A stretch of DNA of 63,114 bases, counting the filler, from Bigelowiella natans CCMP2755 (lineage: Eukaryota > Protista > Cercozoa), in NCBI GenBank assembly GCA_000320545.1. It is 6 parts of 6 records of this genome, joined end to end, with 100 filler letters (N's around TTAATTAATTAA, not from the genome) between each part and the next. Parts side by side here need not be neighbours in the genome. Positions count along the whole stretch, not along the records: positions 31,067 to 35,914 come from ADNK01000662.1; 5 more parts are not named here. One strand, given 5' to 3'. Shown here piece after piece: positions 18,011-47,752 of this stretch. The notes beneath the pieces were generated by a model that was given only the letters and a program-made list of their open reading frames with translations, searched no databases and was not told where the DNA came from. The position numbers and the translations under genes were made by a program. Position 1 is the first letter of the stretch, and the number at the start of each line of letters is the position of its first letter.

Positions 18011-19140
18011 CACAGGTCGGATCATGGAGGCAAAGGGGTCCCATTTTGCGCACAAATGGTCTGCAAAGTCATTTTGTAAACATTGAATTCAAAGTTCAAC
18101 GGTCTGGAAAATGCTGCTTGGCAATGTTGAAGCTTTGTCGCACCATCAAAAGGATCGGCGTTCATTTTTAAAATTTGGCGCGAAACCGCAAACCAAGCGT
18201 TTGCCTGCGAAACACTTTGTCTTGGGATCGATTCATTCATGAGGCCACGGGGGGAATCAGCGTGACCTGCAATCCTTTCAACCGCTCCTGTGGAAATGCA
18301 CAATTCATTCATTTGTTCACCCATTTTGGCGCTTTGTTGGAATGTCGATGTGAACTCGAACAAATCAATCAACCAGCCAATCAACAATCCGTTCCAGCGT
18401 TGTTGGAACGTGAAATGAACGTGAATTGACAATCACACTCGATCAAATGATCTGCGAAAGTTGGAACGTCGAAGTTGACGTGATTCGACCTGGTGGTGAA
18501 TGCTTGAGAGGGTCCAGTGCCTGAGAAAGGGTCTAGAGCTTCCAAGCAGCACAAACCTGCACCCCGCTAGCCTGCTAGCCTTTTGGATTGCCAAAACGAA
18601 TGTGAACCAACAAATCAATCAATCAATCAACCCAACGATCCAACGATTCTCGCTTTTCAAATGCACCACTGGCGCAACTTCGTGCACTTGTGGTTTCACG
18701 CATGCGCACTCATTGAGCTCAAATCAGTAAAAGTCTGCAAAAGTCAGGAAGAAAGGTTTCGCAAGCGCTCGCAGTCATCTCCATTCCCCGCCTACGAGCT
18801 CTTCCACACATTAGGATTGAAAAACGTCCAGTGTCTCGAGGCACCAACACCACTGCATGTCTTCCCCTTCCCTCTTATTCCCACCCCCAATGCTGCAAAT
18901 GAAAGCTATTTGAGAGTTGGAGAGCACCAGAGCTAGCAGAGGACATGCTTCCGGAGGCGGCCAGCTAGCCAGATCTAGAGATCGCCAAACGTCAAAGACA
19001 CACTGCAAAAAGGAGACGTTGAGTGAAAGGGAAAATGACGAGAGAGTGGTTGCAAGCAAGCTAATTAGGCAGCAGCAGCATCGCTTGGCCAACTCTTCAC
19101 GATGGAATCACGCAACACGAGCTAGCGAGGCTTGGAAGGT
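18011..19140. other. TpA-depleted (hypermutated) island 2, probably a decayed repeat or foreign insert
   Basis: Only 16 TpA in ~1130 bp of moderately AT-rich DNA, none in 18171-18533; 7 of the 16 are CTAG. Flanks (e.g. 17941-18000) are TpA-rich. Confidence 0.7.
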
Positions 19141-19565
19141 TCTATAATTGTTCATAGATTTTCCGGGTTTAACTTGGTTAGGCACAGCTTCATCAAACAC
19201 TGCTAAAACACAAGAACAACATGTTGCAAATCGGATCAAACTCTCGGTCTGAATATTTATGAATTCAATGTTTTGCAACATTTTCCCAATTTGCAGTTAA
19301 CCGCGAGGTTCCGTCTCAATGATTGATGTTCATTGCTGCTGTTTGCGTATGGATCTGCGTTGCAATTCTATGCCATTGATTGCACATACATGTCGTAGAT
19401 TGTCCACTCCAGCCACAACGTACGTACACTGATGTGCAATGCTACATGGAAGCACATACATGCTTGTGTATATGTCCTTTGTGTAGATGATATACTAGCT
19501 ATCAGGCTATACTGATAAAATTACTAATGATAAATATGTCTACATGCAGAAGATGTGTCGTTAGG

Positions 19566-20350
19566 CTATGTTCCCCAACCCCCCTCCTGGCCATGTTCAG
19601 CAGCCCCAAAACTAAAGACTGCTGGAACTCGTCTCGATTTCCCCGTGCTTCTCCCCAAGCGCGAAATCCCACGCCCAGTATGGCCGTGAACATTGCCACA
19701 GTTGTTTCTATCTTGATTAATCGATGTGCCTTTCGAAGTTCTTTCTTCGGAAGATGTCATGGTGGTCCTTGCACTATCATCATCATCTAAATCCATCTCT
19801 GCATTTCCTTGGGCAATAGTAACAGAGACATTGTCGCCGGTATGCCTGTTTTCGTACCTCTTATCGTCCATTTCCTGTCCAAAATACGAAATCAATTTAA
19901 TGCAATCCATCGATGTTTCAATAACCTAAATATCATGACTAAAAAATCAAATCAAATCAAATTCTCGTCGTATGTATGTCGCGTTACTCGATGGCACTTT
20001 TCACCCAACTCACAGTCTCTATTCATAAATTTCAACAAGCAATTGACCCATTCACTTCTAATTGTGCTCGAGGACGCTATGAATCTCGTCCCTTCCAACG
20101 ACGGAGAAACGCATTTCTTCCGGAGACTATAATTACAGCAAAAGCGTGGGAAAGCCCGAATTCAGAATTCAAAATCAACATATCTTTCTGGATGCTTCTA
20201 ACCTTCTTGGTTCGTCATATCTATAACTCACAGGGAACTTGTGGTGATGCGAAAGATGCTGACGTCTATTTGGTCTGAGGGGAGTAATTTGCACAACTGT
20301 ATTAGCATCATTTCATTCTGCTTGAATCAATATATTTGGAATTTATATTA

Positions 20351-20389
<39 letters not shown>

Positions 20390-21786
20390 ACTAGATTACA
20401 TTTTTATTGCACTTTAAATGTGTAGGGGCTACTGCATGATAGAAGCGACCTGCAAGCGAATTTCTGCCCACATCCTTCGACAAGGCATTCGAACTAAAAA
20501 AGGGATCAGATTATTGATTCTACAGCCTCGTGGAGGGTTGATCAAGTTTGCAGCGCATTTATCTCGTTGGGTTATTAAAAAAATGGCAATATTTTGAAGA
20601 CACTATCCGTATAGCAATTATTTTAATGTTTATGTTTCCGAATTTAATTTACAGTGAGGAGTAAGAATTTCATTTGTATAATTATGTGCTGTCGCTTCCT
20701 TCTTTCGTGTACGCACCATTTTCCTCCCCATGTCCACTTGTGCAAGGAAGAAGGCATCGTGTCGCTCTGAACCAAAAGGGACAATAACATCATTATAGGT
20801 AGAAAATACGGAAAATTCTTGCGTCCTACAACTCCAAGAATGGAAAATTCTTGATCACCAGAGATGTGAAGGCTGAGATATCGAGCGTTCGGAAAAGCCA
20901 GACCGCAACGCTCACACTATTTACGTATATTTTTGGTGAATGGGGATCCATTGTTGTGAAAATATTCTATCGAATAATTACCCTATGGCGATGAACAATT
21001 TCGTAATGGTCTTCAAATGCACGAAGGTTGTAGCAGACATACTTGCAACCAGCCTCTCGGCAGCGAATGCACTTATCACTTAGAACCAGTTATCGGATGG
21101 GGGGAAGGGGGGGGGCGAGGGATATGAATAAGTATTACTAAGATGAATGAAACAGATTTCGGAGTTCGTGAGGAAGTATCTCTTTCAATTGTGTTCGAAT
21201 TACTGCCCACGTTTCTATCCTCGCATTCATCAATCGCATCAGTTTTGGCATCTAGTGTTACACGCGACCCTGTTAGCTCTCCAACCCCCACCATTGAAAT
21301 ATCATCATTGGGAGGCTCTAAAAGCCATTGTTTTCCCATCAGCGCTCGCTCTGTGTCTCCTAAGAGAAAGAAGTCGGATTCTGCTGCGTACAACCTGGAA
21401 ACAGCATTGAAGGAGTCGTATCGAAAACCGCGCCAAACAAATCTCACATCGTAAAAAATATGGTAAAACTTAATACCTTCGAACACCGCCACTTTCTGTG
21501 CGCCTCCAGTGAACGTACTCCGTCGAGAGTTTGGTTTCGCTCGAGCAAGCATCGGCTTCCATTCGCAGGAGGAAGCTGTCGCCTCCCGGTTTGTTTTATC
21601 CGTCGGGAAAACAGCAGAATTATTAGGATGTTCGCCATGTTTTGCAGCATTTATCATAGACCTTCCACTCGATTTACACTGTCGCTCGGCAGGAAAATTC
21701 GGAATGAGACACATGTAGACACATTGCATAGCGCTGGGAAGATTTTCGTCTTTCTGGCTACAACACATCCGCAACACGCAACACAT
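19566..21786 (-). CDS. Hypothetical multi-exon protein, probably membrane-associated
   Basis: 236-aa open first block (21076-21786), hydrophobic exons (TITKLFIAIG, VAVWLFRTLDISAFTSLVIKNFPF), and a terminal exon 19566-19910. No family recognised. Confidence 0.4.
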
Positions 21787-22008
21787 ATACTCGGTCGGTT
21801 AAAGCGTTTCTGAGAGTACAGTTTGGGATCCCTTTTCTAACGAAAATCAGGAAAATACGCTGTCGCATGTGAAAATTCAGTGCATTTTGAAATGCTGAAA
21901 TGCTAGGTTTTATATCTTCGATCTATCCACATCGATGCACGATGAACGGGGGCGGCCATCTAACAGGACCTCCCCGTGCATTCTCTAGCACATCATAAAT
22001 CTCTTTTC

Positions 22009-24591
22009 ATGGAAGACATTAGTTTGGGCTCGCCGATCAATTCTGGTGGGGAGAGACTTGGACTTAAAAGAGGCCTCGTGAGAGGTGTTAAATGTCCGAG
22101 GTGTGGACGGCGCTATGAAAGCACTTCTGTTATGCTAACCCATTTGAAGGAGTCCCATTTTATTTCGAAAAGAAATAGCAGACCTACAAAACAGGAAAAA
22201 CATAATTCTGCAAACAACAAAGAAGACAAAAAAATAATTAGTAAGAATGCCAAACAGACGCCATTGAGCACGCCGAAGCGTTGTCGTCTCGTGGTTGACT
22301 TTGATGCTCTCCTCTCCGATGAAGAGCAGGAATATATGCACGCGTGGAGGGCAGAATCAGCTCCCTCAACGCCAGGTTCGAAGTTCTCCGCACATACCGC
22401 CAACTCTAACGGGAAAAGAAAAATCGAGAGTCCCGTTGGTACTAGGAGGGGGGGCGATCCGAAATCCCCCAAGATTCCATATATCATCGACCTCGACGCC
22501 TTATTTGAAAATAATGGTGGGGGAGGCCAATCCACTGCCAGCGCAGTTGAAACCTTAATCAACCCAGCTTGCAATAGAGTCAACGATTGTGCTGCTACTA
22601 CTTCAAAGCAGGGGAATCATGTTGGTAAGGCACTTTCCTCCCAGACTGGTGATGCAGAACGCCAAAAGGTTACATCGGCAGCTCTTCGCGATAACGCGTC
22701 AATGTCTGCAGCGAGCATACGCGTATCTTCTAAGAACAAAGCTACAACATCTCTCGCAAAGGATAGTAAAGCGCAGCAAAAGGTACTGCGGTCTAAACTC
22801 AAAACGAGCAATAAAATGAAGGGGAAACCCTCCCCGTTCCCTGTGCGCAGCCCCGGGTTAAAGAGTAGGAACACGGGCAGCAGTTTGATGCCTCTACATG
22901 ATTCGATAGAAGACACCCTGAGCCGTAATGATCGAGGATGGAAGTTTTTCCCATGCTTAAGCCTCAGAACAACCTTTTTCGTCGCATCGATCTTGCTGCT
23001 ACTCTACGCGGGAACGAGCACATTGATCCTTGTCGTGACAATCGGGCAGCACCGCGCTCAAGTGGATGAAGGCTACGATTTCCAAATCCTGGTGTATTAC
23101 ACCTACCTCTTCGGGCAGGAGGCGTGCTTGTTCGTCCTCTACTTGCGCACCATTAAGCCTTCTTTGGTCCGCCGAGAAAACATACGCACGTGGGGCGGGA
23201 TCATCGCCACGATGTGTTTCCTCCGGGTCATGATTGAATGGCGGCTTGTTCGCGCTGGCAGCCCGTCGGCAGTTGTGGGGATTTTCGCAATTCTCTACGG
23301 CCTTGCCAATATGACGGCAATCCTGTTCTACCCCTTGCATCTACTGCTGAATGCGAACAGGCTGGGCGATGCGGGCGGGGGGGGGAGAGTAGCTCGGTGC
23401 TGGGAAGTCCTCAGTGTTACGAAGTACCCTGCGATGGTTCTCTTCTACTTGCCACTAATGGTGCTGACCTTTTGTCTCCCGTTAGCCTTCCCGTTTGACC
23501 AAGCAATCTTCACTCTGCTGCTGGCCGTTTGGTCAGTCTTTGGAGTTGTCGCGCTCATAGGCATGGTGGCGATGAAGGAATGTCTGCGACATGATCACAT
23601 AGGCTACGTGCTCTATTGCGCGTTAACATCGTATAGCCCGCGCGTGATTGGGAATGTGATATCAGCGCTGACGCGGCTGAACTTCGCCTATAAGGGCGTT
23701 ATGCTCGTCGTTGCGACGAAGGTATGAAAAGCACGGTTTTAGCCTTCCAGCAATGCGTTGTAGATGGTTGAATAGTCTTCTTCCATTTTATACATTCTCT
23801 TGTATGAAGCTTGAGTAGTCTTCTTCCATTTTATACATTCTCTTTTATGACGAGTTCTTCTAACGTTGGCCGGCATGTCTTACGTATGCGTGTTCCACTA
23901 TAGCATGCTGTGCTCACTGCCTCCTCCTTCTCCTTCTCCCCCTCATCCTCCTCCTCCTCATTCTCCTCCTCCTCATCCTCTTCCCCCGTGTCATTGTACG
24001 GCACCAACCAACATATTAGGTGATCTTCCAGGTGGGCATGTTCATGACGTCAGTACAGCTCAATGTCCTAATTACACACGGGGCGCGCCAAACGAACTCA
24101 CTGCTCTTCGCGTGGCAGTTTGGCCAGTACTTCATCGTCAACGCACTATTTCTGGACGGGGGGCTCGACGGGGAGTTTGTCGTGATGTTCATCGTCAATA
24201 TGGCCTCCTCAATCCTCAGAGACAGCGGTAAGCAGCACCGGTTATGTGCGGCAGTTTGTTATCCTCTCCAACTATACCTGTCTCCTCTTATCGCGACGAT
24301 TCTTCTCTCTCCCCCCCCCCCCCCTCCCACCAGGAATATTGCACGAATTCTTCTGCAAATACATAATGAAGATGACGGAGAGCACCGACATAGCGAATGA
24401 GATGCGGGAAATATATACCCTCACACAGCAGAACTCGCTCGCGGAGGTGCTATGCGCGCCGTTACTCCTCGTGATGGTGATGGTCGAGTACGCGGCGACC
24501 GGGGGAGAGACGCCATTAGGAATCCCAATCATCATGTCAAATGTGGACAGGTAGCCGCGAAAGTTTGGGATCTAGTGCGCGAATAGAATAT

Positions 24592-24643
<52 letters not shown>

Positions 24644-25877
24644 AAATCGCTAATCTCTCTACCGGTGTTTGTTTGTTTTGTAAACCAGAGCGAAGATAAC
24701 GGACGTGTTGCTGATTTTCGTGATCATGGTGTCTACGAACATCCTCATCGGCTGGACGGGGAACCATTTATTTACCAAGCGAATGTCCAGGTTCGTAAAG
24801 AGAAGGGAGAGATAGAGTATGGGAGAGGAGATGGTCACAGAGGCATATCAGAGGGGGGGGGGGGTTGAGTATAATACGGAGGAGGAGCGACAGGACAGCA
24901 TATGCATTCGCTGCATAACTTTCTCGCTTAGCATCTTGAAATTGCTCCCTTCATTCTATCCTCGTGGCAGGTTGGAAAAGAAGTCGATCGTGACTCGCCT
25001 GAGCTCCCCTCGGTTGTTAAAAAACTCATCACTCGCTTCGCTCCAAATCGACGACGTGCCAGAGCTAGACGAGGGGGGGGGGGCAGCTGCTGACGCTATC
25101 GGGGATACTCCCAAAAGCCACCCAGATGTGTCTGAACGTGCCACTTCCACCGTCGTATCAGGTCTTAGCATTGCGTAGACCTGCAGTTTGGGTTAATACC
25201 AGCCTCCCTTCAAATATGTGTAATAGCCATAGACACTTCTTACATGAGCGAGTGCTAGCGTGTGCGCCTAACAGCATCATAACCCTCCAGGCGGCGCTGC
25301 AGACGGCCGCTCAAGTCCACCCGACCTCGAAGAAAAGCGTTCGAGCTTTGCGCCGCAGGGCTTGGGAAGCTTAAAGGACGTGACGTTCGCGATGTACGAC
25401 AACACAGACGAGCGAGAACAGGACGGGAAGGAAACGGCAAAGGCCGGTGACGCTCGTCCTCGGCCCGAGCATAAACAGGGAGAGAGCATAGTCTCGCAAC
25501 CATCAGTGGGAGAACCATCAACGCCGGCCAGAGACGTTCGTTTTTCTCAAGAATCATCCTCTCGCCCCTCTACGAGTGACGCCAAACCCCGTCCTAGCGA
25601 TAGAAGCGACTCGACGAGCAGCTCTGCGGCCATGTCCCTCTCTCGAGTTTTAGGTGGAGGCGACGGCAGAACTCGATTGAGAGAAAGCAACAGTAGAAGT
25701 AGGTATATGAAAGGCAGGAAGATGACCCGCCACCGGCAGCATACGCGAATGTCCATCTTTGCCAAGAAAAGAGTGAAAGGTAAGATTTACGACTTGTGGC
25801 GGGACAACGGGCTGCTGTTTTTTATCGTTATGTGCGTCATAATCAACTCAACGCGACATTGGACGTTGATGGGTTAA
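22009..25877 (+). CDS. N-terminal C2H2 zinc finger, disordered linker and multi-pass transmembrane domain protein
   Basis: The ~1.7-kb first exon contains CPRCGRRYESTSVMLTHLKESH (C-x2-C-x12-H-x4-H) and several hydrophobic helices. Further TM exons lie at ~24020-24228, ~24333-24551 and ~24689-24790. The last exon ends ...LLFFIVMCVIINSTRHWTLMG-TAA at 25877. Confidence 0.7.
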
Positions 25878-26654
25878 ACATCCACGATCGGAAACTCGTG
25901 GGGGCAAGACGCTCGCCTCCTTCTGCGTGTGTACATAAAGTCTAGAAATAAAGTTGCGTTGGAGGGGTGGTAACACGGGACAATACTCACTGATATTCGG
26001 GCATGCTGTGTGCTAGTATGTGATAGCGACTTGAGCACATAAAACCAAAAGCAATCAGCGCGCAGGCTAGCAGGGCCGTTCTAGCGTTGTGCAATCTAGA
26101 AATGCTGCGTCGAGCCTGAAGCGCAAAAGCGACATAAGTTGTCACATTGGTGTCGCTGTGCATCTGTGCATGCGGTCGAAGCAAAGAAGCGGCCATCGCC
26201 TCACTAGCTCGCAATAGCATTTACGTTATTTAGGCTGAGATATACTAGTATAATGAACTGATAAGTGCTCGCAACATTTTAGCCTCTACTGCTCAGGAAC
26301 TTAATAATCTGACGCTGTGATTGCTGTTACATATGCGCTAGCATGCTTGTTCGAGCTAAATTATCTACTGACACCAAGAAGACTTTTTAGCGATGTCTTG
26401 ACCTTCAAAGCGCGAGATTCAGCACTTCTAGACTTCTAGACTTGGCACTTCGTGGCTGCTATACTGCAATAGTGCATGTTAATGTAGTGAATATGCGCTG
26501 TGACTTGCACATGCATGCACACAACTTTATTCAAGCACTATTTCCAACACGCCGCCATTGGACGTAATGAACTCGGTGAGGCATGATCTAATTCGAGAAA
26601 TTGAGCTCCAGATATCATGATGTCCTCCGACACAGCATCATCATCTATGCACGC

Positions 26655-27746
26655 TCACAAACCAAAACACATTTTACACCACCTTTTCCCTACACTACTC
26701 CAGCTTCTGTCGCCGCATCCAATCTTCTGATAACTAAGTAGAAACTCTTCTTGATTCTTGTTAAAGGATCCCTTTCGTATGCTTCGAATGGCAATTATTG
26801 CATCAACAGGGTCCATTCCAAGCTCAATCAGACCAATTGCAGTACAGACTGGAGCTCTAAAAAGTGAATTAGTGTAAGCGGGACATTTTTAGGGCAAAGA
26901 TATAACCATGATTTCTCCACTACAAGTAAGAATAGCTATGTGCTGTGCGAAATTATGGAAGCCAGCTCGCTGTGTGGAGTATGTGCAAAATCAGACATGC
27001 TAAATTTGGAACGATAAAATGATCGACTTCTAGTCCTTTGATTTATGGTATCAATGTCATCTTTGCCACCTTCCAAGTCCGGTGATACAATGTACGGCTA
27101 CCGTTGTCGTTGCGGGTTTGGTGCTGTTGCTGCCTTCTTTCTTTTGTTTGCCTTTCTCCTTACCGAACACATCGTCGATGATTTGAAGCCATTTATCCAC
27201 AATGCTTCTGGAGGGAGCACTGCCATCTTTAATGTAAAGATCCTAGGAAATTCAAAAGAAGTTGTCATGGAGTTTATCGGTTCTCGTTACCAATGCTGGC
27301 CTTGTATCGATTATAGAATTCACGATGTACTAACACCTAGGGCTATATAATTCTAAGATATAGGAAGCGATCGATTCTCAGAGGCTTGGTTTAAGAATAT
27401 GAGAGTATTCTGTTTTTATCATCAGTGGGATAATTTAGTTACATCTTCTCCACAGTCGGAAAAAATACTTCCATAAAATTACCTTAACCGCGATGCCTTT
27501 TGCCTTCAGCCTGTCAGCAGAGTAGGCTGGCTCGCATGTTCGCACGACGGTACTGACATTTTCGTTCTTTAGCACCTGCAGTTCAATATTGGTTACTTTA
27601 GCGACTTGGACCAAACTTGTACGATTCGACGAGAGATAAGTGACCTTGGCATACGCCTCGATGTTCCTCTCCGTAGGGGTCTCCATGATTAAGAAGCGAC
27701 GCTCTTTGTGAACGATCACTGCGGGGGCGGAGATTCCATAAGCCAT
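26655..27746 (-). CDS. PTP4A: PRL-type (PTP4A) prenylated protein tyrosine phosphatase
   Basis: Spliced translation: MAYGISAPAVIVHKERRFLIMETPT...VVRTCEPAY...DGSAP...VAVHCITGLGR/APVCTAIGLIELGMDPVDAI...RKGSFN..Q. It has a PRL-type P-loop (HCxxGLGRA) and a C-terminal CAAX box CFGL before TGA at 26655-26657. Confidence 0.9.
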
Positions 27747-28477
27747 ATTCTTCTTCTACAGCAAAACTTGAACTGTGCCTCGCTTTTTTGAAAAATTCCG
27801 TGTGTTCTCTTTCTTAAGAGCGGAATGGGAACGTTTTATCTAACCGCCCCTTATTCTGCAGATGTTCAGCAGCGACGAATGCGATGAGCTCGTCTATGCG
27901 GTAGTTGCTAAAGTTGTACGTTCTTCTGGGGATTCGTATATCGTAATCCTCCATACAATGTTGCAGTTTGAGTTGTGGGAGCCTGCCGCATGCGAGAATC
28001 CTCTCGCAAGCGTCGCTCGAAATGGGTAGCCGAAGTACACAGAAACGCATTTTATTTTCCGTCTACGACAACTCTATTATATTTGTCGCAGTATAATGTT
28101 TACCTATATTTCCATCGCATTTCGTCAATGTCCCTGCTTTCTCCCGGAAACTTCTGCGGCAACGTCCCTGAGAATTGGGACGCCTGCTCGAAAATAAGGC
28201 GATTTTCGCAAGATTGTCGCTGGAAACTCACAACTGAAATCTCTACGACCTGTCAACAATGGCCTAGAATTAGAGCCCTTTTGCAGGCTAATGCATCGAA
28301 AACAGTATGGCGCCAGCAGGAAATGGACTTCGTTTGGGCGTATTCCGGGCAATAATTGCGATCGGTAATAATTCGAATGGGAAAACGCCGAGGGAAAACT
28401 TTGAGAGCAGTAATCCATTTTTAGTCTGCGACATTAAACAAAATATTGTCGCGATATTTTATCAGATTCGTAGAAGA

Positions 28478-29214
28478 ATGGCGGTAAGTACGCCTCTATC
28501 TAGGGGCCGCACCACCCCCTCATCCTCGGTGCTATATGCGGTCTCTGTCCTCGTGGCTGGCCTATGTCTTACGCTCTCTACTCTAAGAAAAGATTCAGCT
28601 TCGCATCCACAGCAACTTTTATCCTATGCGCCGACAAGAACAGCTCGGAGCGAGACTCTTCGTCGCGCTACCCAAATTCCTTCTCGCTACCCGCACACAA
28701 GGAGCGGGCCATCTTTTTCGATGCAGAGGAAGAAGAGTTCCAAGCGTTGCACAACTGTTGGATCTGGAGCACAGAAGGCTGTGGAGGTGGCAAGTGGTGT
28801 TGCAGAGCAAGCCGTCCAAGCGACCCAGGTACCCCGAGTGAACAATGGTGATGAGTCATAATCGTGGTAATGTGCACTGTAATCAAGATTTCTACTCGTA
28901 TCGATGGTATTTGTATATATTGTGTAAATTAGCTGGCATGTGCAGAGCTATTGCTTAGACAGTTGAATATCCACATCACGCACACACACACACATACACA
29001 CACACACACGCTTATACTTACACTCGGTCCCCCCCCCCACACACGCGGCACAAACCGACAGCCCATCGCGGAAGGAGTCGCAGGAACGTTAGCTCAGGGT
29101 GAGTGGTGAAATTTTACACGTGCGTAGTTACCTGAGTAACCTAAAATGTTATATGCATATATACATGTTTACATATACATATACATATACATATACAAAT
29201 ATTTTTAATTCATT

Positions 29215-29262
<48 letters not shown>

Positions 29263-30478
29263 GATCTCACGTAAACCATACATTGTACATGTACCACACA
29301 AACCTGAAGGAGTCGCAGCGGATGCCGTTGGAACCGTGGCAGGTGATGCTGCGACGTCTGTCGCAGCGTCCGTCGCAGCTACTGGCGCAACCGAGGCAGC
29401 CAAAACGGGGCTTTGGACAACCGTCAAAGGAAAATGCGCTGCTTGTGCGGACAAAGTAGTCGAGGGGGTCAACCATATCCCCCTCATGCCAAAAGTTATC
29501 GCCTTCTTCGGATGGCTGAATGGGTGACTGCTCTCATCTGATTGCGCGGCGTAGAAGACATCGGCGTGCCTCTGTTGCGCTGCTGTGTGCTCTGCTCCTC
29601 TCCGCATCCCCTCCCCCCTCGCCTCCCAATCGAAGAAGTTGTGATAGATGCAAGAGGTCCTTTGTAGCAAAGGAGAAGACATTTCTAATACCTATTCCTC
29701 CTTCTCCTCCTCCTAATTCCCGTGGCGCAGATACGTCGGGTGGGGTACACCTTTCAGCTACATCGTGCTCGGCATCCTCGTGCATCGTGGGTATGCGAAT
29801 CTTAGGAAGTTCCTCACCGAGGGGGGGCTGCAAGAGGTTATGATGCGCTCAATGGTGCAAAAGATGTACAAAGGACAGATGTCCGAACCGCAGATGGAGG
29901 TCAGTTGCCCCCCCCCCCCCCCTCCCCCTCGTTCAAACCCCGTTTTCCACTAGTAACCGGTCAGTACGATTGGTTGATTAATTGGGCGATATTCTCTACT
30001 TTCGCGAAGGAAATGGTCCAGAGCATGAAAGCAATGAATGGCATGAACGGCATGATGGGGGGTGGTGGTAAGGCTCAGTCGCCCGAGGTCTTCCTTCAAA
30101 TACTAAAATGCAAAAATAACAAATAAAGCAGTAACAAGTGTCAGTTTTTAACTCAAAACTCGCATTAATCCCGTCGTACCGAATAGCCTACTACGGAGCT
30201 CTTTTTCTCTTAACAATAGAAAGAATCAATACAATTATTTTTCAAGAAAAAGAAGTGGCCATATTTACCCTCCTCTGTACCATCCTCTGCCTCTTTGTTT
30301 CCCAATCTTCTTCTTCTTCTTCTTCTTCTTTTTCTTCCTCCCCTTCCTCTTCTCAGGACCTCATGAAACAGATCCAGGATATGCAAAACATGATGGGGAG
30401 CGGGGGGATTCCGGGAATGCCGGGTATTCCAGGAATGCCGGGTGGTTTAGGCGCTCCGCAAGCCTCTGGATTTGGTGT
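28478..30478 (+). CDS. Tic40-like plastid inner-envelope co-chaperone with bipartite targeting leader; 3' part not seen before the assembly gap
   Basis: Leader with a hydrophobic signal (SVLYAVSVLVAGLCLTL) followed by a Ser/Arg-rich transit-like stretch. The TM segment plus Met/Gln-rich helix GTPFSYIVLGILVHRGYANLRKFLTEGGLQEVMMRSMVQKM resembles the Tic40 TM/post-TM region, and a GMPG-rich linker follows. STI1 domains are not seen before the gap at 30967. Confidence 0.6.
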
Positions 30479-30508
30479 GTTTTCTTGATATCAAACACAC
30501 AGACAAAC

Positions 30509-30549
<41 letters not shown>

Positions 30550-30588
30550 TACACACAGTATACTACATATATACATAATATATTTCTT

Positions 30589-30623
<35 letters not shown>

Positions 30624-30662
30624 CATAGAGAGATAGCGAGAGAGAGGGAAATATATATTATG

Positions 30663-30697
<35 letters not shown>

Positions 30698-30966
30698 TGT
30701 GTGTAACTCTAACCCCTACCCACAGTGCGACAGAGGGAGATCGATACCGAGGGTCCGTGATATGCTGGGAGATGATTTTCCGACAATCGCAACGGCTACC
30801 CCTCTTCCCGTGACACCCTGCTTAAGTGACACGGGCGAATATAGTCGCTCTTTCTGTTCGTTCTCCCCTCTGGATCCCATGGGCCCCGTTCTGTCCCCAA
30901 ACCCTGAACCCCTCAGATTCCTATATCACGGACACTGGCGAGTGTGTTTTGGTTACTGCTCTGACC

Positions 30967-31066
30967 NNNNNNNNNNNNNNNNNNNNNNNNNNNNNNNNNN
31001 NNNNNNNNNNTTAATTAATTAANNNNNNNNNNNNNNNNNNNNNNNNNNNNNNNNNNNNNNNNNNNN
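30967..31066. other. Assembly gap / artificial contig linker
   Basis: N44-TTAATTAATTAA-N44 (stop-codon linker). Confidence 0.97.
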
Positions 31067-31289
31067 CAAAAAAGAAACCCATCCCCATTTTTTTCTTTTA
31101 GCCCCCCCCCCCCCCCCCTTCCCCCCATTTTTTTTTCAAAGGTGAAAACGGGGGCCATGGGGGGGGTTCAGTGCAGGTCCGGGGCACCCCCCTTTTGACT
31201 TAATGTGTGCAGGCCCGGGTTGCGGGAGAGAAAACCTTTCTGTGGCATTTGTTCCCCCCCCCCCCCCTTTCCACCCCCCCCCCCGGCTT

Positions 31290-31700
31290 CTTCCTTTTCA
31301 ATGCGAAAGAAGCAGGTTTGCAAGAGTTTGAAGTGCACCACACGCAGCTGTTGGCTGACGTGACACAAGACACTCCGGGTCACGCACACAAGAAGAAGTG
31401 CTGCCCACGTGCCCACACTCCCATGCCAACCCCCCCCCACAACCACTTGCACCTCCCCTTCGGAGAGTCTCCTGTGTCCTGAAAGTGGATGAGAAAGTCA
31501 GGTCACATCGTCACGGAAGTGGTGGTGCAGGTGCAAACGAAAAAAACCACCTCACCTGCCAGGCTGGGGCAACCTTGACCAGCTCGGCTGTGGCCCCGCT
31601 GGGTTGCAAACCTGAACGACGTGACGATGTTGTCGGGCAAAAAGACGTCAATTGCAATGAAAACGATTGATGAAAACACCCACGTGGCGGAGGAGCTTCA
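31290..31700 (-). pseudogene. Remnant of a multi-pass membrane protein gene, Tyr/Leu codons eroded
   Basis: Reads SATWVFSSIVFIAIDVFLPDNIV...VVFFVCTCTTTSVTM*PDFLIHF...WHGSVGTWAALLLVCVTRSVLCHVSQQLRVVHFKLLQTCFF. It is hydrophobic, has no Tyr, and has one in-frame TGA. Confidence 0.4.
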
Positions 31701-32996
31701 GGAGGTTGACCACCTGCAGCTCCACGCACGTCGATGTGTGCACACGTGAGGCGGGGAAGGCCCACCCAGCGTTGCCTTTCCCACCCTCCACCACAGACAC
31801 TGCAAGTGACTTCCGTTGCCTGCAAAGTGAAACGTTCTTTCACTTCGGTCAACTCCAATTCCCTTCAGGTGGCACTCAGCAACATCGGTGGTCGCATTGC
31901 CACTTCCCTTTTCAAGTGCTTCCTTGCAAAGTTCAAGTGCCTTTTGCAGATTTCTTTCAACCCCACACCCGTCACAGCAGCAAATTGCTGAAGTGAGTGT
32001 TGCTTTTGAAAATCCCTCCTTGTGTGCCACTTTGCAGAGTTCAAATTCCTTTTCTTCACTTTTCTCAACGAAAGTTCCGCTGTGATGGCAATGACCAAGG
32101 TTGCAAGTCCCACAAGCACTTCCCATTTTGTGTGCTGGTTCGTGCAGTCGGAATGCCTTTTCCTCGTCTTTCGTGATTCCAATTCCTTCTTGGCAGCAAT
32201 GACCCAGGTTGTTGACAACACAAGCGTTTTCTCTTGTGATTCCTTTTTCAATTCCTCTTTTGAACGCTTCCTCGGATGCTTTGAATGCCTTTTGGAAGTT
32301 TTTTTTTGTCCCATGACCTTCCACATGGCAACAACCCAGAAGACTGGTTCCCACAGCATTGCCCACATCGTGTGCTTTTTTGGAGAACTCACGTGCCTTT
32401 TGCCCTTGTTCCGTGTCATTGCAACACACACACAATTCGCACATTCCCTCATCGTCCAAGTCACCCTTTGCGAACTTCTCCTCGCATTCCTTGGTCCCAA
32501 ACAAGAGAGTGCAAGCAAAAAAGGAACGACAACAGGCAAAGGCAACTTGCTCTGCCAGTTTTGCTTCCTTCTCCAATTTGATGTGTTGCTCAACCAATTC
32601 ACACGTTTCCTTCTCGCCCAAGTCATCGTTCTCAAACTTCTTCAAAAAGTCGTCACGATTGAACCTGAACACTTCGTTCCTTCTCACTGCTTCTTTTGCT
32701 TTCTCGCACATTGCACACGGAACATCCGCCTTCTTGTGGTTTCTTGCAACACCCCTTCCGTGTTCATGGCAATGAGCGAGGTTGTTGGTGGCAATTGGAT
32801 GTCCCTTCTCGTGTGCCACTTTGCAGAGTTCAAGTGCCTTTTGACAACCTTTTTTCACTCCTCTTCCATTGTCACAGCAAACACCCAACACGTCAGTCGC
32901 ACGAACACGTCTCTTCTTGTGTGCAGGTGGGCACTGCCCACATCGCAGATGCCGCCATTGGCGGTTGCAATGATCATCATTGTCATTGCTTGCACG
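31698..32996 (-). pseudogene. Sel1-like repeat (SLR/TPR) protein gene, intronless, all Tyr converted to Cys/His
   Basis: About 7 Sel1 repeats, e.g. LGVCCDNGRGVKKGCQKALELCKVAHEKG, NNLAHCHEHGRGV, NNLGHCCQEGIGITKDEEKAFRLHEPAHKMG, CNLGHCHHSG. No Tyr in the 397-aa ORF. The frame is open from 32996; the ORF track starts at GTG 32891. Confidence 0.88.
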
Positions 32997-33146
32997 TCAC
33001 ACACTTGGTGAAGGAAAAGAAGGACACGAACTCGTGTGGAGACTTTTGGTGAACGAAGGAACTTTCACGTCTTTGGGAAACAGCAAGTTGCGTCGTGCTC
33101 CAAAACCGTCACTTTTCGAAAAGACCTTCTCAGAACCACCTCACTT

Positions 33147-33533
33147 TCAACCTTTTCTCAGGACGACTGAAGTTGAAAACCGAAGTTGGGAAGACCAAAA
33201 GACGTTGTGAGAGACCACGACTCCAAAGGGACCTTTTTTCACCTTGACCCTCCTTGCCACGGTCAAAGTGCCCACGAAGAGAAGCAGCAGCAGGCAGAGG
33301 AAGAGCAACAGCAGCCCCGCAACCACGATTGGGCCACCCGTGATCGTCTGCGAGCACGCACTGCAAACCACAACACACGCCCAGGAGGAGCAAAAGGTCA
33401 AAGCGTGGACCTGGAAAGTGCGGAACCCGTGCACACCAATGACCAAGAACACGTGGGAAGTTCGCACGTCGTGGACGGCACGGTACGCACAGGGACACAA
33501 GTGTCCACGTGCCCTGACACACGTGGACCGCAC
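33147..33533 (-). pseudogene. Remnant of a membrane protein gene, TpA/ApT eroded
   Basis: VHDVRTSHVFLVIGVHGFRTFQVHALTFCSSWACVVVCSACSQTITGGPIVVAGLLLLFLCLLLLLFVGTLTVARRVKVKK. It becomes a normal 2-3 TM segment if H/C are read as Y and S/P as L. Confidence 0.4.
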
Positions 33534-34217
33534 TGGTCAAGTGAACTGCATGCCTTGGGTGCACTTTGGTGCACGTGTGGGCAGCAACACACGTCGTTGT
33601 GTCACGTGTGGCAGGAACACACGAACCGAGCTGCACGTGTGTTCCACGCGCGTGCACGCCCACAGCCCCGGCCAGCCGGGCCCACGGCTAGACGGGGGGG
33701 AGAGGCACCACGCAAAGTGATTGCAGCTCATCACCAGTGGACTACCAACTCTTGGACTTGTTTCAATTTTTGAAGTTCACAAGGGATTCGGCCCGAGCGA
33801 CAACGCTTCCCTGCAAAACAAGCCAGGTCGCCTTGGTTGGAATCGAAGCCAGAACTGCCAAAAAATCACACACTTTCAGCTTGCGACATGCCTCAGTCGA
33901 AGTCGCACACATGGTTGTTCCCTTCGTCTGGACTCGGAAAATTGCGGGAGATCATTGTGTTTGACTTGACGCTGATAGCTGGCCTCGAATGGGCCTTCTG
34001 CATCCGATCTGATCCTTTTCACCTTCTGGCTCAAGGAGAACAAAGCTACCGATTCCATCACAACCACCATCTTCAGTCGATTGACTCCAGCGATCTGCAA
34101 CCTAACAATTTGATGATTGATTTTTGGGTGGCGGGATTTTGACGCGTCATTTTAATTGTGCATCTTCGCCTCAGCACTCGCATTTCCCCCTCCCACCCCT
34201 TCCTCTCTTCCTCCATT

Positions 34218-34534
34218 TCACAGAAGTGCCCTCTGCATCTCATCCTCGATGGGATGTGCAAGGTGTTGAAAGCCGCGTGACATTTGAGAGCCTTTGCCCA
34301 AATTTGTCCATGCTGATCGTTTCGATTTATCACAAGGCATCAACGCTTCTACGCTGATAAACGAAGGAGTGAAACCTGGAATCAGTGCAAGCCGATGCGC
34401 TAATGAGGGATCCTCCATGTCTCCTAGCATATCCGAGTGCAGGAGCGAACAATACGACAGTGCGGGGGAGGTAGTCGTCGTGAGATTAAGGATCTCAGCA
34501 AACCACAATGTGCCTAAAGTCCACAAATATATGT

Positions 34535-34612
<78 letters not shown>

Positions 34613-34913
34613 TATATAAAGCGTGAGCGTCATTCATACGAATTGCTCAGATGATGTGCTGTGACGAGACCAACAACAGCAGCTACAGTAAGGACAGCGG
34701 TACTACAACTATGGAAATATATCACGGGTAGGAAATTACACATTCTGTAACTTCTGTGCTTTTTCCAGGCCTAAGCCAAGAAAAGGCGCATTTTGCAGGT
34801 AGCAGAGCTCTTATGCTATATTACTTGCCCACCAGATCTGAAATACTTGCCTTAACTTTGAGCTACCTCATGGACATAAGAGCGACGATGTAGCCCTAAA
34901 TGAAATGAATAAA

Positions 34914-34999
<86 letters not shown>

Positions 35000-35830
35000 T
35001 GTTCTTTGCGTTCCTACCTAGCAACGAATCGCCTTCGGAGGGTTGTCAGCGATGTGGCCCCGATCACTAAGGAGCCATTTCCCAAAAGCAGGTCGCGCAG
35101 CACTACTTGCGACACCCGTCGCACTCCTAGATCACTGAGTGATGGATCTCGGGGGAGCGATGTGAAAACTGGGCAGCCATTAATGCGTCGATGATGGAGT
35201 CGTGCTGCAGTCACCAGAAATGCTTGCATGTGCCTAATATGGTCATGCGTGTGTATTCATGGAGTATATCTGAGGGGGAGGGGGGGGTTGGCACACGTGC
35301 GTTGATCGTATTGCGTTTATTCTGTTACACCTCGTCAGATTTCGAGGAAAGACGCCCATCATTAGTTCCAGCTCCTCAATGAACGGAATCCGAGGGGGGG
35401 GAGAGATATGTACTATGCCACACACACAACACACACACACACACACACAGTCTTAAGTCACGACGAGAACTTAACCATGCATTCTTATTCTTCTTCTTCT
35501 TCTTCTTCTTCTTCTTCTTCTTCTTTTCTCAGTGACGCTGCGGGAGCCGGACACGAATACGTCCTTTCTCCTTCGGAGAGAAGACATCGATTTCCGATTC
35601 CAAACCACATGTGCGTGCGTGCGTGCGTGTTTGCTGCGTGCACGTTTGCTCATACAACATAATCGCACGATTTGTAGATGAGGACCGTATTTCTTGTTGG
35701 TGTATTCCTGAGTATTTGTGTGTGTGTGTGTTTGTGTGTGTGTGGTGATGTTGGTTCATCTTTTCTTCAGTGCGCGGCATTGGTCGCGTATTCCGACGCA
35801 TACAGCGCGTGCTTGATCAAGTGTGCGAAT
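34218..35830 (-). CDS. 3' exons of a host gene, possibly the continuation of the cNMP-binding-domain gene across the gap
   Basis: Minus-strand exon-like blocks between microsatellite introns (RINGCPVFTSLPRDPSLSDLGVRR..., NRKSMSSLRRRKDVFVSGSRS). Confidence 0.35.
34539..34610. repeat. Perfect (AT)n microsatellite, representative of the many (TA)n, (CA)n, (CT)n, (CAT)n, (CAG)n and (TAG)n tracts in introns
   Basis: Seen directly; similar tracts occur throughout 1-14000 and 34500-63100. Confidence 0.95.
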
Positions 35831-43292: not shown

Positions 43293-44142
43293 TTTCGAGC
43301 GCGATTCGAATCAGTTCGTCCACGGATGCAATAACTCGGGGCCTGCAAGATGATGATGATGGCGAATCGTTTCGTCATTCCAAAAACCCTTCCACCACGT
43401 GCGAGGAAACAAAAATACGAAGATTTGCCCTATAGCTTGGTCGCATGGTAGGGGGCAGAATGCCATCGGCAGCATGCAAGCATGCAAGATACATGTAAAG
43501 GGGGAACAGTACGGACAATGTTTTTCAGGGGGGGGGGAAGTTGACCACAACGGCTTCAATTATCCGGGCCAAAAATTTAGGATGTTTTATGGATGAAAGC
43601 TGCACTCATGACCGACCTTGTTCCGGCGATGTCGCACGTCGGAAACACGTTCGTAACGGACTAGATACTAGGATGCAACTGGGGCGACAAGGAAATAGGA
43701 AAAATGCCTAAGGATTCATGATCGCGACAAGAAAAATCGGCAAGAGAAATTGGCTCTCCCGACTTCAATTCCAGTTGGAAAACGGCAACGGAAACGGCCG
43801 GGAAACTCGAAAAAGTTGAACAGCAGAGACGCGAAGCTCACCCGCTCTCCTGGATAGAAGAAACTCGAACGAGGGGCTCACGTCGCTGGCAGGAGGAAGG
43901 TTGGTCAACGGGAAGAATGCCTCGCCCCCTTCCACCAGAATTCTGCCATGTATTTAATGATTATGAAGTTGCATTTGTCTAGCGTGCGAGCCCCGTGTTA
44001 CGTTACACATGATTTGATGGAACATTTTTGTTTTACAAATAAAATACATCCTCGCTTGGAATCGCCCCTTTCAAGTACGTTATACGTGTGAGACAAAAAG
44101 GACCTAGCTTTCCAAACCCCGGAAAGTCTCTATCAGACTGGG

Positions 44143-44880
44143 ATGGCCAAACTGCCGGAAAGCATGCGCGCGATTTCTTCTGGCCCTGACTTAAGCTACT
44201 GCGGTTTCCCAATAGAACCAGCCTCCCGTCGCACATACGAGAGTAAAGCCTCGACGCATTATGAGGGGGAAGCAAGTGTGCGAGGAACCCAAACCAAGTG
44301 CAAAGACACGCCATTAGATGTGGACAGGCAAAGGATAGAATTCGAATCAGCCGAAATACATGCATCGGTGCACTGGATTGAGTACCATGACGAAGATTCC
44401 GGCGCAGCGTATTACGTTGACACAAACACTGGTGATTCCACGTGGGAGCGTCCAAAGTCGCCAATATTTGTAGGCCCTGAAGAGAGCCGACTGAATCCAA
44501 GCATGGGCCTGAGAGGTCACGATTCCTTTGGCACAGCAGCTCCTCTGCAGGAGATGAACTGGGTGTCTTCCTACAGTGATCAGGCCCCGTCAAATCAGGA
44601 AGTGCAGGCCGCAAAGATGACAACGGATGAATCTGAGGAACATGCAACACCAGAACCTACTACTATGGACACTGTTCTTTCCATGGGGTCGTTGCTATCA
44701 TCCTTGCCTTCCATCCCCGAAGAGTCAAAAATAGGGGGATCCGACGAAGAAAATACTCAGAGTAGTCAACGAAGCTCCGCTGGTTCCACCGTGGAAACCA
44801 CTCGCGATGGTACTACCAGAGCGACGATGGAAGAACAACGCAGCAGGGTAATAGTTCAAGAGGAAGCTAGAAGGCCATAA
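44143..44880 (+). CDS. WW-domain protein; 5' end possibly further upstream
   Basis: HWIEYHDEDSGAAYYVDTNTGDSTWERP matches the WW consensus; the rest is acidic and disordered. Confidence 0.8.
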   Translation: MAKLPESMRAISSGPDLSYCGFPIEPASRRTYESKASTHYEGEASVRGTQTKCKDTPLDVDRQRIEFESAEIHASVHWIEYHDEDSGAAYYVDTNTGDSTWERPKSPIFVGPEESRLNPSMGLRGHDSFGTAAPLQEMNWVSSYSDQAPSNQEVQAAKMTTDESEEHATPEPTTMDTVLSMGSLLSSLPSIPEESKIGGSDEENTQSSQRSSAGSTVETTRDGTTRATMEEQRSRVIVQEEARRP

Positions 44881-45444: not shown

Positions 45445-47752
45445 TCACTCCAGGTTCTCGAGCCACGCTTGGTCGTCCATGTTGTACCGCTTCCGAACGC
45501 GCGTCCGGCGAGTGCCTTCCTCTATGATGTTGTTAAGCTCTAGGCCTGCGAGGAGGGAAAGGGGATTGGCGGGGAGGGTAGCCGAGGCAGGTGGCGAGGG
45601 TTGGGGGGGGGAGGGGTACAGGTGAGCTACGTCAGTATCTTGCAGAAATGTGGAAGAATGCTTTTGCAAGATGAGATTTGTTTAACAGGCAACAGTCCCT
45701 CCCCTCCCACCCTCATTGCGTGTAGTCGAGAGAATCACCTGAGGCTCGAGTGCGCTTCTCGATCATGTCCTTCTGCTTTTTCTTCTGTCGGAGGTCCTCG
45801 GCGATGCTCTCGAAGACCTGCCGCATGTAGTTGATGGTGGCGCGGGCCGTCTTTGTCTTCGGCCGCTTCTCGCGAAACTCCGCGGCCAAGCTCTCCACCC
45901 CCTCAAGATCTGTTGATTTTGCGCTTGGTTTAGATTGGTGTGCATGTGTGTGTTTTGTGCGCGCGTGCGTCGTCGCTGAGTGTGGAATCGCATCGAAATG
46001 GAAATGGCTTTTCACGCTTCATGCCGTTGTGCACAAAATCAAGTGAAACAGAACGAGAAGACGCCCTTCTCTGCTATTCCTCACTCATCGTTTCACCACT
46101 CTCCTTTTCTTTCTCTTCTTCTCGATCCCCCCCCCCCCCCTTGACTTCCCTAATATTGCTTTCACGAGCGAGTCGCTACCACACACAAAAAATCGCCACA
46201 TCTTTCTAGCATGTTGTCCCCCTCCCCCCCCCTCCCCCTTGCCTCGCTGGTGCCCACCACTCCAGCAGTCACGTACCAGTAGCAACGAGCTCCCAAGTAT
46301 GCTCCTCTTCCGCCTCCTTCTCTTCGTCCTCCTCTTCGTCGGCTGCTCCTTCTCCCTCCTCCCCCTCCTGTTGCGCCTTCCTCCTCTTCCCTCTGGCCTG
46401 CTGCTGCTGCTGCTTCTTCTTCCGCTTCTTCAGGTGCGGCGCGGGGGGGAGGCTTTCCCGGTACACATGCGCCTCGGGCCGCCTGTCGTCGAAGGAAAAG
46501 CTCCAGTAGCGATGCCGCTGGTCGGAGGCGAGCGGCTCGCTCGCGAACGGCCGCTCACGCTCGTCGTAGACCACGAGCTCCCTGACGAGCTCGTTTTCGG
46601 CCAAGTTCCACTCGCACAGCCAGGAGAGCACGCGCACCTTCTCCGGCGCCGAGAGTTCGGAGAAGGCCCGCGCCGCGAGGGGGTTGTCGAGCTCGGACTC
46701 GAGCCCGCATTGCGCCAGGTGACCGGTGATCTGCGTCGCGAGCTCCCGTTCCCACGAGAACTCGTCGATGCGGTCCTGCTTGGCCGGGAGGTAGAGCTGC
46801 AGCAGTGTGCGCGCGAGGTTGGCGGCGAAGTCGGGCGGCCTCGCCCCCGTGAGGGAGTCCTGCAGCAGCCGCGGCGCGAACGTCTTGAGCAGCTCCCACT
46901 CGTGCATGAACTTGCCGAACGTCTCGCACCACATCAGCACGAAGCCCCACTTCCAACTCGACTCGAGGGATTGCAGCGCACTTCCGTCCTCTTCCTCCTT
47001 CTTCTTCTTCTCCTTCTCCTCCTCCTCCTCCTGCTGCTCAACCCGCCCCTCCAGATCTGCGGGCGAGAGGACCTGCTCAGGGAAGGCGGCGCGAGCGACT
47101 TCCATGAAGCGCCGCCAGGTCGAAAAGGCCAGGACGCTAAGCTCGCTCTCCCGCCCGTGGTAGCGCACGCAGTTGTCGCGAATCAGTCGGAAATCCCTCG
47201 CGAACTCGGTGACGGTGGGGTACCTGCCCTTCTCATCAACCCCGTGCTCTATGGTGGAGATGTCCATCGGCCTCTTGATGATCTCGGCGTAGTTGGGGGG
47301 GGCGGCCTCCCCGTCGCCGAGCACCGGGCGGCGGAACGGCCAGGAGTCTGGATGGCGCCTCACGCTCCTCGCCACTTGCAGGAGCGCGTCGCGGAACACG
47401 TCCGCCTTGGCGCGCTTCCTCGACAGGCTCCTGAGCTTCATCATGAAGGCCTTCTGCAGCTCCTTGGCCAGGTCGCACAGCTTGCCGGGGCCGTTGTAGG
47501 ACACGCAGTTCGTGACGATGAGCTGCAGGAACTTGAAGAGGTGTCCGATGGTCGTGCACACGCCCTCCTCCGCCACCTTCTGCAGGGTGTCGAAGTCCAT
47601 CGGGTGCTTGATGGTTTTACTGTAGCTGTGAACAACAACAACAACAACAACAATAACAATAAGAACAACAACAACAAAAATGAAGCACTCGTTTCAGAAG
47701 GGGGGATACAGGGGAGGAGGGGGGAGGGGTAATCAAAGCTACGATGCGAGCT

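What the first reader, a model, noticed from the sequence alone, without database searches (positions are those of the whole stretch)
31203..33483. 2.28 kb with zero TpA dinucleotides: candidate adenine-directed, RIP-like genome-defence hypermutation
Seen: a manual scan, including block junctions, finds no TA between 31203 and 33483. Roughly 1 in 16 positions (~140) would be TA at balanced composition, and host introns about 1 kb away keep long (TA)n tracts. TG and CA are abundant, and long ORFs appear in many frames because TAA/TAG cannot occur. Known: fungal RIP runs the opposite way (CpA>TpA); 5mC decay gives CpG>TpG; DGR mutagenesis is single-strand A>N; ADAR acts on dsRNA. Inference: TpA was converted to saturation into TpG or CpA, i.e. 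A>G on either strand of the palindromic TA. This is what DNA adenine deamination (A>inosine) by a TadA/ADAT-like enzyme targeted to foreign or repeated DNA would produce. I know of no described eukaryotic system that does this.
Basis: partly seen in the sequence, partly recalled or inferred. Interest (0 to 1): 0.95.

Follow-up and report, generated by a model that had tools for sequence, protein, structure and literature searches.

The report
Gene stripped of every TA step
In this algal-type genome a 2.3-kb stretch, including a likely dead Sel1-repeat gene, has lost every T-A step to T-G or C-A and likely about half of its A-T steps too, the end state of a recently reported DNA-rewriting defence that is likely driven by an enzyme not yet identified.

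Summary
In detail: 0 TpA in 31203-33483 against 107-134 expected, and contigs of six DNA runs carry the same letters. It is mutation, not native composition. The tract holds a Sel1-repeat frame with no tyrosine; the column that is Tyr in 294 of 365 homologous repeats reads Cys or His in 7 of 7. Related copies differ by TG/CA swaps, and one still has TA where this copy has TG.

The process is not undescribed. A 2026 preprint (10.64898/2026.01.13.699255) measured TpA>TpG/CpA hypermutation in Bigelowiella natans, the likely host here (inferred, not shown), and proposed the same deaminase idea.

This locus adds four things absent from that main text: complete saturation; a second, weaker loss of ApT (rho 0.46, below all 62 simulated controls, four copy-to-copy sites) with ApA spared; a target that looks like partly duplicated host-type DNA, not a virus; and TpA loss running about 0.85 kb on into the start of a spliced neighbouring gene. 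Adenine deamination is the most likely chemistry but is untested; thymine-centred damage or a mutagenic polymerase would look the same. New variant of a known kind; interest 0.5.

The parts
31203..33483 (.). TpA-free tract (saturated zone); TG and CA enriched, ApT halved
   Evidence: same letters in contigs of six DNA-type runs
31698..32996 (-). Open frame of 432 codons with seven Sel1-like repeats, 0 Tyr, 8.6% Cys, 5.8% His; likely a dead gene
   Evidence: Pfam PF08238, E 1.4e-26; repeat columns; 212 homologues all hold at least 2.7% Tyr
32923..33005 (.). About 70-80 nt shared with many other contigs of the same runs; copies differ at TA-derived sites and some keep TA
   Evidence: summed depth 373-2,885 against 12-96 beside it; variant table and loose ends
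33283..33408 (.). Segment with a second, about 90% alike copy (paralogue inferred; an allele is not excluded)
   Evidence: 94-nt contig with 8 transitions in X10, X13, X16, exact in X1, X9, X7; loose end behind 33376
32986..33327 (.). 342 nt with neither TA nor AT although 50% A+T (about 20 AT expected): strongest ApT loss
   Evidence: longest AT gap of the window
33484..34327 (.). Taper: 7 TA of 46 expected; ApT back to normal from about 33900; TA normal from about 34350
34222..35409 (+). Neighbouring spliced gene (five GT..AG joints in one contig of a run guessed to be RNA); its first listed exon and intron lie in the taper
   Evidence: tables 5 and 8
31714..31819 (-). Intron-like piece GCAACG...CTGCAG with mixed CA/TG/CG alternation; donor would be a converted GTA (inferred by eye, untested)
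   Evidence: read; run list
31479..31555 (-). Intron-like piece GTGAG...TTTCAG (inferred by eye, untested)
   Evidence: read
30967..31066 (.). Assembly gap with linker; the left end of the edited zone is hidden behind it

Best explanation
This stretch has had every TpA rewritten to TpG or CpA, likely by a host enzyme that deaminates adenine in chromosomal DNA of a likely silenced, partly duplicated region, the same process reported for Bigelowiella natans. Steps: (1) the region is marked, probably through chromatin or small RNA, because the loss fades over about 0.85 kb rather than stopping at an element end (fade shown, marking inferred). (2) An A behind a T becomes inosine on one strand and is fixed as G at replication (inferred). 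TA is its own reverse complement, so a site ends as TG or CA about equally and is then no longer a target (outcome shown). (3) Repeated over many generations, at least about 5e5 at the preprint's average rate, this removes all of roughly 100-140 sites (estimate). (4) With such long exposure a much slower second context shows: ApT goes to GpT or ApC, about 60% overall, while ApA is spared (depletion shown, cause inferred). (5) A>G and T>C never make a stop from a sense codon, so the gene dies by missense (all Tyr to Cys/His) and by loss of TA-bearing splice, stop and promoter signals, and the frames look open. Odds: real targeted A:T>G:C mutation of DNA 0.93; adenine deamination as the chemistry about 0.6; host is B. 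natans about 0.85.
For: Tyr column 9 (294 of 365 homologous repeats Tyr, 22 Cys/His): 7 of 7 TGY or CAY, 3 Cys and 4 His, P 8e-9. Column 26: Cys/His in 4 of the 4 repeats in register there, P 9e-7. Over 211 best alignments homologue Tyr meets Cys 26% and His 23%. Between the seven repeats TG/CA double swaps outnumber single transitions 90:32, against 0.08-0.30 for five other classes and 1.04 for GT/AC. All 12 listed differences to related contigs are transitions; 8 of them form TG/CA/TA alternatives. One related copy keeps TA at 3 sites within 30 nt where the window has TG (loose end at 32967, aligned by eye). 20 prokaryotic control frames from Sel1 loci have TpA ratios 0.55-1.07. ApT: ratio 0.46 against 0.72-1.25 in 42 host segments after simulated TA-only conversion, matched by adding about 60% ApT conversion; 0.56 in the Sel1 frame against 0.84-1.27 in 20 controls; Asp/Asn column 18 reads GGT, AGT, AGT in 3 of 7 against 16 of 404 Ser/Gly (P 0.003); four copy-to-copy AT/AC or AT/GT sites. 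The preprint saw 230 of 231 mutations in two regions as TpA>TpG/CpA arising in living lines.
Against: No enzyme, inosine or intermediate is shown here or in the preprint's main text. The one characterised DNA-acting ADAT2 prefers GAA and also deaminates C (PMC10354150 passages), whereas GAA is not depleted here (121/198 against 0.56 in host DNA). A 5'-T preference does not by itself predict ApT as second context. The preprint's lines showed no ApT change in 230 events. The codon-level ApT test is not unique: one of 20 controls reaches 5.8 against 6.7. 4 further copy-to-copy transitions lie in neither context (and the loose end at 33376). The second TA-poor patch at 18020-18800 shows no ApT loss. 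The host species is inferred.
Confidence: 0.6

Rival explanations
1. Same regional DNA hypermutation, but the chemistry is on thymine or in synthesis: a modified T (for example an oxidised thymine) that pairs with G, or an error-prone polymerase or repair step that puts G opposite T at TpA and, less often, ApT.
For: A>G and T>C cannot be told apart in fixed sequence. The two lost steps, TpA and ApT, are the two A/T-only palindromes while AA/TT is spared, which fits a two-strand or T-centred geometry. Dinoflagellates carry hydroxymethyluracil (PMC11071213, search listing only).
Against: Polymerase-eta-type errors are recalled (no call) to hit both TA and AA, and AA contexts are not depleted (AAA 130/191, AAG 129/208). 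One search listed no paper with modified thymine in Bigelowiella. TpA matches the recalled 5'-U/T preference of ADAR- and TadA-type enzymes.
Confidence: 0.28
2. The sequence was hyper-edited as double-stranded RNA by an ADAR-like enzyme, then reverse-transcribed and inserted.
For: ADAR favours U before the edited A (stated in the preprint).
Against: Both strands are converted about equally (175 TG, 228 CA in 31290-33483; 3 Cys: 4 His). The loss runs on into DNA contiguous with a spliced gene. No reverse transcriptase or integrase match in the frames scanned. The preprint saw the changes arise in resident DNA.
Confidence: 0.05
3. The DNA came from a source that natively lacks TpA, or selection removed TpA while the Cys/His-rich protein stays functional.
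For: No close relative was found (best identities 41% or less), so the source is unseen. GC-rich host coding DNA falls to a TpA ratio of 0.35.
Against: 0 of 212 homologues are below 2.7% Tyr; control frames are at 0.55 or above; the conserved Tyr is split between Cys and His across repeats; related copies keep TA or took the opposite outcome.
Confidence: 0.03
4. Sequencing or assembly artefact next to a gap.
For: The tract begins about 140 nt from an assembly gap, in homopolymer-rich sequence.
Against: Contigs of six runs repeat the letters; four of them are not flagged as possible sources of the window; single contigs run from the TA-free zone into TA-normal DNA.
Confidence: 0.01

Closest known systems
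TpA-specific hypermutation of integrated viral DNA in Bigelowiella natans (Mettrop et al., bioRxiv 10.64898/2026.01.13.699255)
   Same: TpA>TpG and TpA>CpA on both strands of nuclear DNA, regional, leaving TpA loss with TG/CA gain; that paper also reports 124 TpA-poor clusters and 324 low-TpA coding sequences, many with host-type domains.
   Different: Here the loss is complete (their giant-virus region is at 0.45), ApT is also lost (their text says only TpA; 'ApT', 'Sel1', 'intron', 'saturat' have 0 hits), the target shows no viral mark, and the loss fades into a spliced neighbour. Whether this locus is in their supplementary tables could not be seen.
Repeat-induced point mutation (RIP) of ascomycete fungi
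   Same: Dinucleotide-specific transitions on both strands that ruin repeated DNA; recalled to spread into flanking unique DNA.
   Different: RIP is C>T (recalled: mostly CpA>TpA), raises A+T and makes stop codons; this process lowers A+T, removes TA and cannot make stops. Dependence on homology or a sexual cycle is untested here.
ADAT2/3 of amphioxus acting on DNA (PMC10354150)
   Same: A natural eukaryotic enzyme that turns A to inosine in DNA.
   Different: It prefers GAA and hairpin loops and also deaminates C at TCG; GAA is not depleted here.
ADAR hyper-editing and APOBEC3 editing of viruses and retroelements
   Same: Context-biased deamination used as defence; ADAR favours U before A.
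   Different: ADAR acts on RNA; APOBEC acts on C, recalled as mostly one strand. Here the change is fixed in DNA on both strands.

Membership tests
B. natans TpA hypermutation | TpA depleted with TpG and CpA gained | tested here: met
   TpA 0.00, TG 1.46, CA 1.46
B. natans TpA hypermutation | Changes are A>G after T and T>C before A, on both strands | tested here: met
   Tyr to Cys/His 7 of 7; TG/CA swaps between repeats and copies; a copy retaining TA
B. natans TpA hypermutation | Confined to TpA | tested here: not met
   ApT also lost; may be a slow second context unseen in 230 new mutations
B. natans TpA hypermutation | Host is B. natans or a chlorarachniophyte | tested here: inconclusive
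   GT..AG introns, 47% GC, a window protein in a eukaryote protein set, run contig totals of 100-282 million letters, leader-like N-terminus at 28480-28860 (likeness recalled). No named match
B. natans TpA hypermutation | Target of viral or other foreign origin | tested here: inconclusive
   No relative in viral contigs; only generic Sel1 hits from bacteria, fungi and unnamed sources; intron-like pieces and back-calculated GC near the host's
B. natans TpA hypermutation | Still active in cell lineages | tested here: inconclusive
   No difference at the residual TAs of the taper in contigs of six runs; few sites, and contigs drop rare variants
B. natans TpA hypermutation | Meets the paper's cluster rule (3 windows of 1 kb, TpA at most 0.43 and CpA+TpG at least 1.52) | tested here: inconclusive
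   TpA rule met in 3 windows; my pooled CpA+TpG ratio is 1.37-1.60 and misses 1.52 in some windows; their exact formula was an image
Fungal RIP | C>T transitions that create TpA | tested here: not met
   Direction is opposite
Fungal RIP | Triggered by duplication | tested here: inconclusive
   Related copies exist for 32923-33005, 33283-33408 and 31714-31748; none at 80% or more is listed for the Sel1 body
Adenine-deaminase DNA editing | Enzyme and inosine intermediate | not testable with these tools
   No genome held; needs biochemistry or genetics
Sel1-like repeat proteins | Tandem 36-residue repeats matching PF08238 | tested here: met
   92.4 bits against a cut-off of 30.7; 108-nt periodicity

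The most novel reading that the evidence does not exclude
This alga has a mirror-image RIP: a heritable editor that is aimed at duplicated or silenced host-type DNA as well as viruses, reads A/T palindromes in two tiers (TpA first, ApT far slower, ApA never), and spills over into the start of an active neighbouring gene, so it both kills repeats and mutates bystander genes.
Probability: 0.35. Interest if true: 0.8.

Novelty: new variant of a known kind. Interest (0 to 1): 0.5.

Why it matters
The process was reported only in 2026 and its enzyme and trigger are unknown. A saturated locus gives a fingerprint that short experiments cannot: the rank of contexts (TpA, then ApT, with ApA and GAA spared) is a direct test for any candidate enzyme and argues against a plain copy of the amphioxus ADAT2 preference. 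A host-like, partly duplicated target with a fading edge bears on whether the trigger is foreignness, repetition or chromatin state. A natural editor of adenine in chromosomal DNA would also interest base-editing work. For annotation, such tracts give false long open frames.

Tried and rejected
No whole genome was held, so no genome-wide scan, deaminase search or full copy alignment. Searches for the source gene found only generic Sel1 proteins: 49 hits of 4,411 candidates, best 150 of 34,320 at 27-40% identity, 3 phage records under 30%, none in viral contigs. A degenerate motif scan of metagenome contigs gave six loci with no blastn match to the region. Frames in and around the tract other than Sel1 gave no Pfam match above cut-off; Rfam gave 0 in 17000-35000. 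Naming the host failed; a recalled likeness of the 28480-30480 gene to Tic40 found no support. Expression: no RNA holder listed; the raw RNA run had next to no reads anywhere on the stretch and the RNA-guess run has no Sel1 contig; neither is evidence. The hairpin at 32951-32965 does not fold better than shuffles (z -1.5). 6mA at ApT as cause of the ApT loss was considered; passages of PMC12695648 report no link between 6mA and ApT depletion and do not mention Rhizaria. The 25-nt leader on the neighbouring transcript was not found in the window. The last notebook entry says the second read-laying run did not complete; one search did answer it.

Full report
Observation. The claim holds. There is no TA between 31203 and 33483; the flanking TAs start at 31201 and 33484. 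Base composition predicts 134, the window's own ratio 107, and the poorest host coding ratio 47. No other dinucleotide has a gap above 384 nt in the window. TG and CA both stand at 1.46. Of 24 runs listed, 16 hold half or more of the sampled words. I laid 8 of the 24. Contigs of the six DNA-type runs repeat the tract from 31254-31347 onward with 0 or 1 other letters, and single contigs run from 33347 into TA-normal DNA. Four of the six are not flagged as possible sources of the window. An artefact is excluded except for 31203-31253.

What the tract holds. The minus strand has a 432-codon frame (31698-32996) with Sel1 repeats (PF08238, E 1.4e-26; 108-nt period). It has 0 Tyr, 8.6% Cys and 5.8% His, against 5.9, 1.9 and 1.6% in 49 homologues; none of 212 homologues is below 2.7% Tyr. 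The repeat column that is Tyr in 294 of 365 homologous repeats reads TGT, CAT, CAT, TGC, CAT, TGC, CAC (7 of 7; P 8e-9). The second Tyr column reads Cys or His in the four repeats in register there (r1, r4, r5, r6); r2, r3 and r7 were left out of that count because they leave the repeat pattern, and read Cys, Ser and Gly. Between repeats, TG/CA double swaps exceed single transitions 90 to 32, against ratios of 0.08-0.30 for five other classes. This is what independent conversion of one TA to either TG or CA gives.

Copies. About 70-80 nt at 32923-33005 are shared with many contigs of the same runs, and 33283-33408 has a second copy. All 12 listed differences are transitions. At 32966-32969 the window's TGCA alternates with C, A, T and G at the four places, the outcomes of TATA. 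By eye, the loose end at 32967 in X13 keeps TA at three sites where the window has TG, has two TG/CA swaps, one AT where the window has GT, two transversions and a gap. The loose end at 32965 in X10 has three TG/CA swaps. Of the 8 differences in 33283-33376, four make two TG/CA swaps, two are AT/AC, and two lie in neither context. I read these as paralogues because the rest of the stretch shows no variants; alleles are not excluded. No copy at 80% or more is listed for the Sel1 body.

A second signature. ApT is at 0.46 in the tract, and 342 nt at 32986-33327 have neither TA nor AT, with about 20 AT expected. CAT, AAT and GAT are all depleted (P 2e-8, 7e-5, 1e-10), while AA contexts and GAA are not. 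TA-only conversion simulated on 42 host segments leaves ApT at 0.72-1.25; adding about 60% ApT conversion reproduces the observed AT, TG and CA and comes close on GT and AC. Twenty prokaryotic control frames, taken as the longest frame in Sel1 loci (L014 dropped as too short), stay at 0.84-1.27 against 0.56 for this frame. The Asp/Asn column reads GGT, AGT, AGT in 3 of 7 (P 0.003), 22 of 28 AC/GT swaps between repeats are independent of TG/CA swaps, and four copy-to-copy sites are AT against AC or GT. Against: the codon odds ratio (6.7) is approached by one control (5.8), the source gene is unknown, and the patch at 18020-18800 loses TA (7 of 55 expected) but not AT. I put real ApT conversion at about 0.8.

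Edges and target. On the right the loss fades: 7 TA of 46 expected in 33484-34327, normal from about 34350. That zone takes in the first listed exon and intron of a gene with five GT..AG joints in a run guessed to be RNA. The left edge is hidden by a gap. Reverting 100-140 TG/CA sites in counts restores ordinary ratios and gives 45-47% GC, close to the window's 47%. Two intron-like pieces and CACGTG-rich alternating runs (10 in 31290-33720, 4.1 per kb, against 0.24 in host DNA) suggest host-type DNA with former (TA)n; this is read by eye and untested. No viral relative was found and all protein hits are at 41% or less, so horizontal origin is neither shown nor excluded.

Mechanism. Shown: saturating, two-strand TA>TG/CA change fixed in genomic DNA, with a graded edge. 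Inferred: a regionally targeted enzyme, most likely an adenine deaminase whose inosine is copied as G. From the preprint's numbers (210 changes, 6,169 TpA, 3,132 generations) the rate is about 1.1e-5 per site per generation, so clearing about 120 sites needs roughly 5e5 generations or more (rough, since callable sites differ). A context some hundred times slower would then be visible here and invisible in 230 new mutations. Thymine chemistry or a mutagenic polymerase gives the same fixed pattern (0.28). The known DNA-acting ADAT2 prefers GAA, which is spared here.

What is known. bioRxiv 10.64898/2026.01.13.699255 describes TpA>TpG/CpA hypermutation at about 6e-7 per site in two viral inserts of Bigelowiella natans, TpA-poor clusters genome-wide and an ADAT2 candidate. 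Three searches for this process listed no other paper describing it; one search found none joining B. natans and Sel1; ApT has 0 hits in the preprint's main text. Other papers were seen as passages only (PMC10354150, PMC12695648, PMC7779022, 10.1101/2025.11.19.688996) or as a listing (PMC11071213). RIP, polymerase-eta and TadA preferences are recalled. The host is probably B. natans (spliced introns with microsatellites, 47% GC, contig totals near a 95-Mb genome, the signature itself), but no call named it, and two unchecked notes of this scan report the signature in diatom-like genomes, so the signature alone does not fix the species.

Verdict. Real, striking and correctly read as TA>TG/CA hypermutation, but the kind is already in a preprint. 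The additions are saturation, a likely second ApT tier, a host-like partly duplicated target and spill into a neighbouring gene. New variant of a known kind, interest 0.5.

Noticed in passing
window 18020-18800: Second TA-poor patch: 7 TA of 55 expected, TG+CA 137 against 97, ApT normal; no Pfam or Rfam match. Likely a less advanced case of the same process.
   Followed up: partly
window 34222 (contig of run X17): The spliced contig begins with 25 letters not found in the window; an upstream exon elsewhere, a strain difference or a spliced leader.
   Followed up: partly
window 28480-30480 (+): Multi-exon gene with a hydrophobic leader, a membrane segment and Met/Gly/Pro-rich tail; may be plastid-targeted. 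No database match.
   Followed up: partly
window 31714-31748: 35-nt segment shared with another contig whose loose ends are also free of TA, so more edited loci exist in the genome.
   Followed up: no
window 33240-33330 (-): A hydrophobic, membrane-anchor-like frame upstream of the Sel1 repeats, inside the duplicated segment; may be the gene's first exon.
   Followed up: no
window 46269-47693 (-), 44092-44880 (+), 49107-49469 (-): Ordinary host frames: two bromodomains, a WW domain and a weak OCRE match.
   Followed up: no
window 30967, 35915, 50163, 51541, 53280: Five 100-nt gaps each carry the linker TTAATTAATTAA, whose TAs are not genomic.
   Followed up: yes
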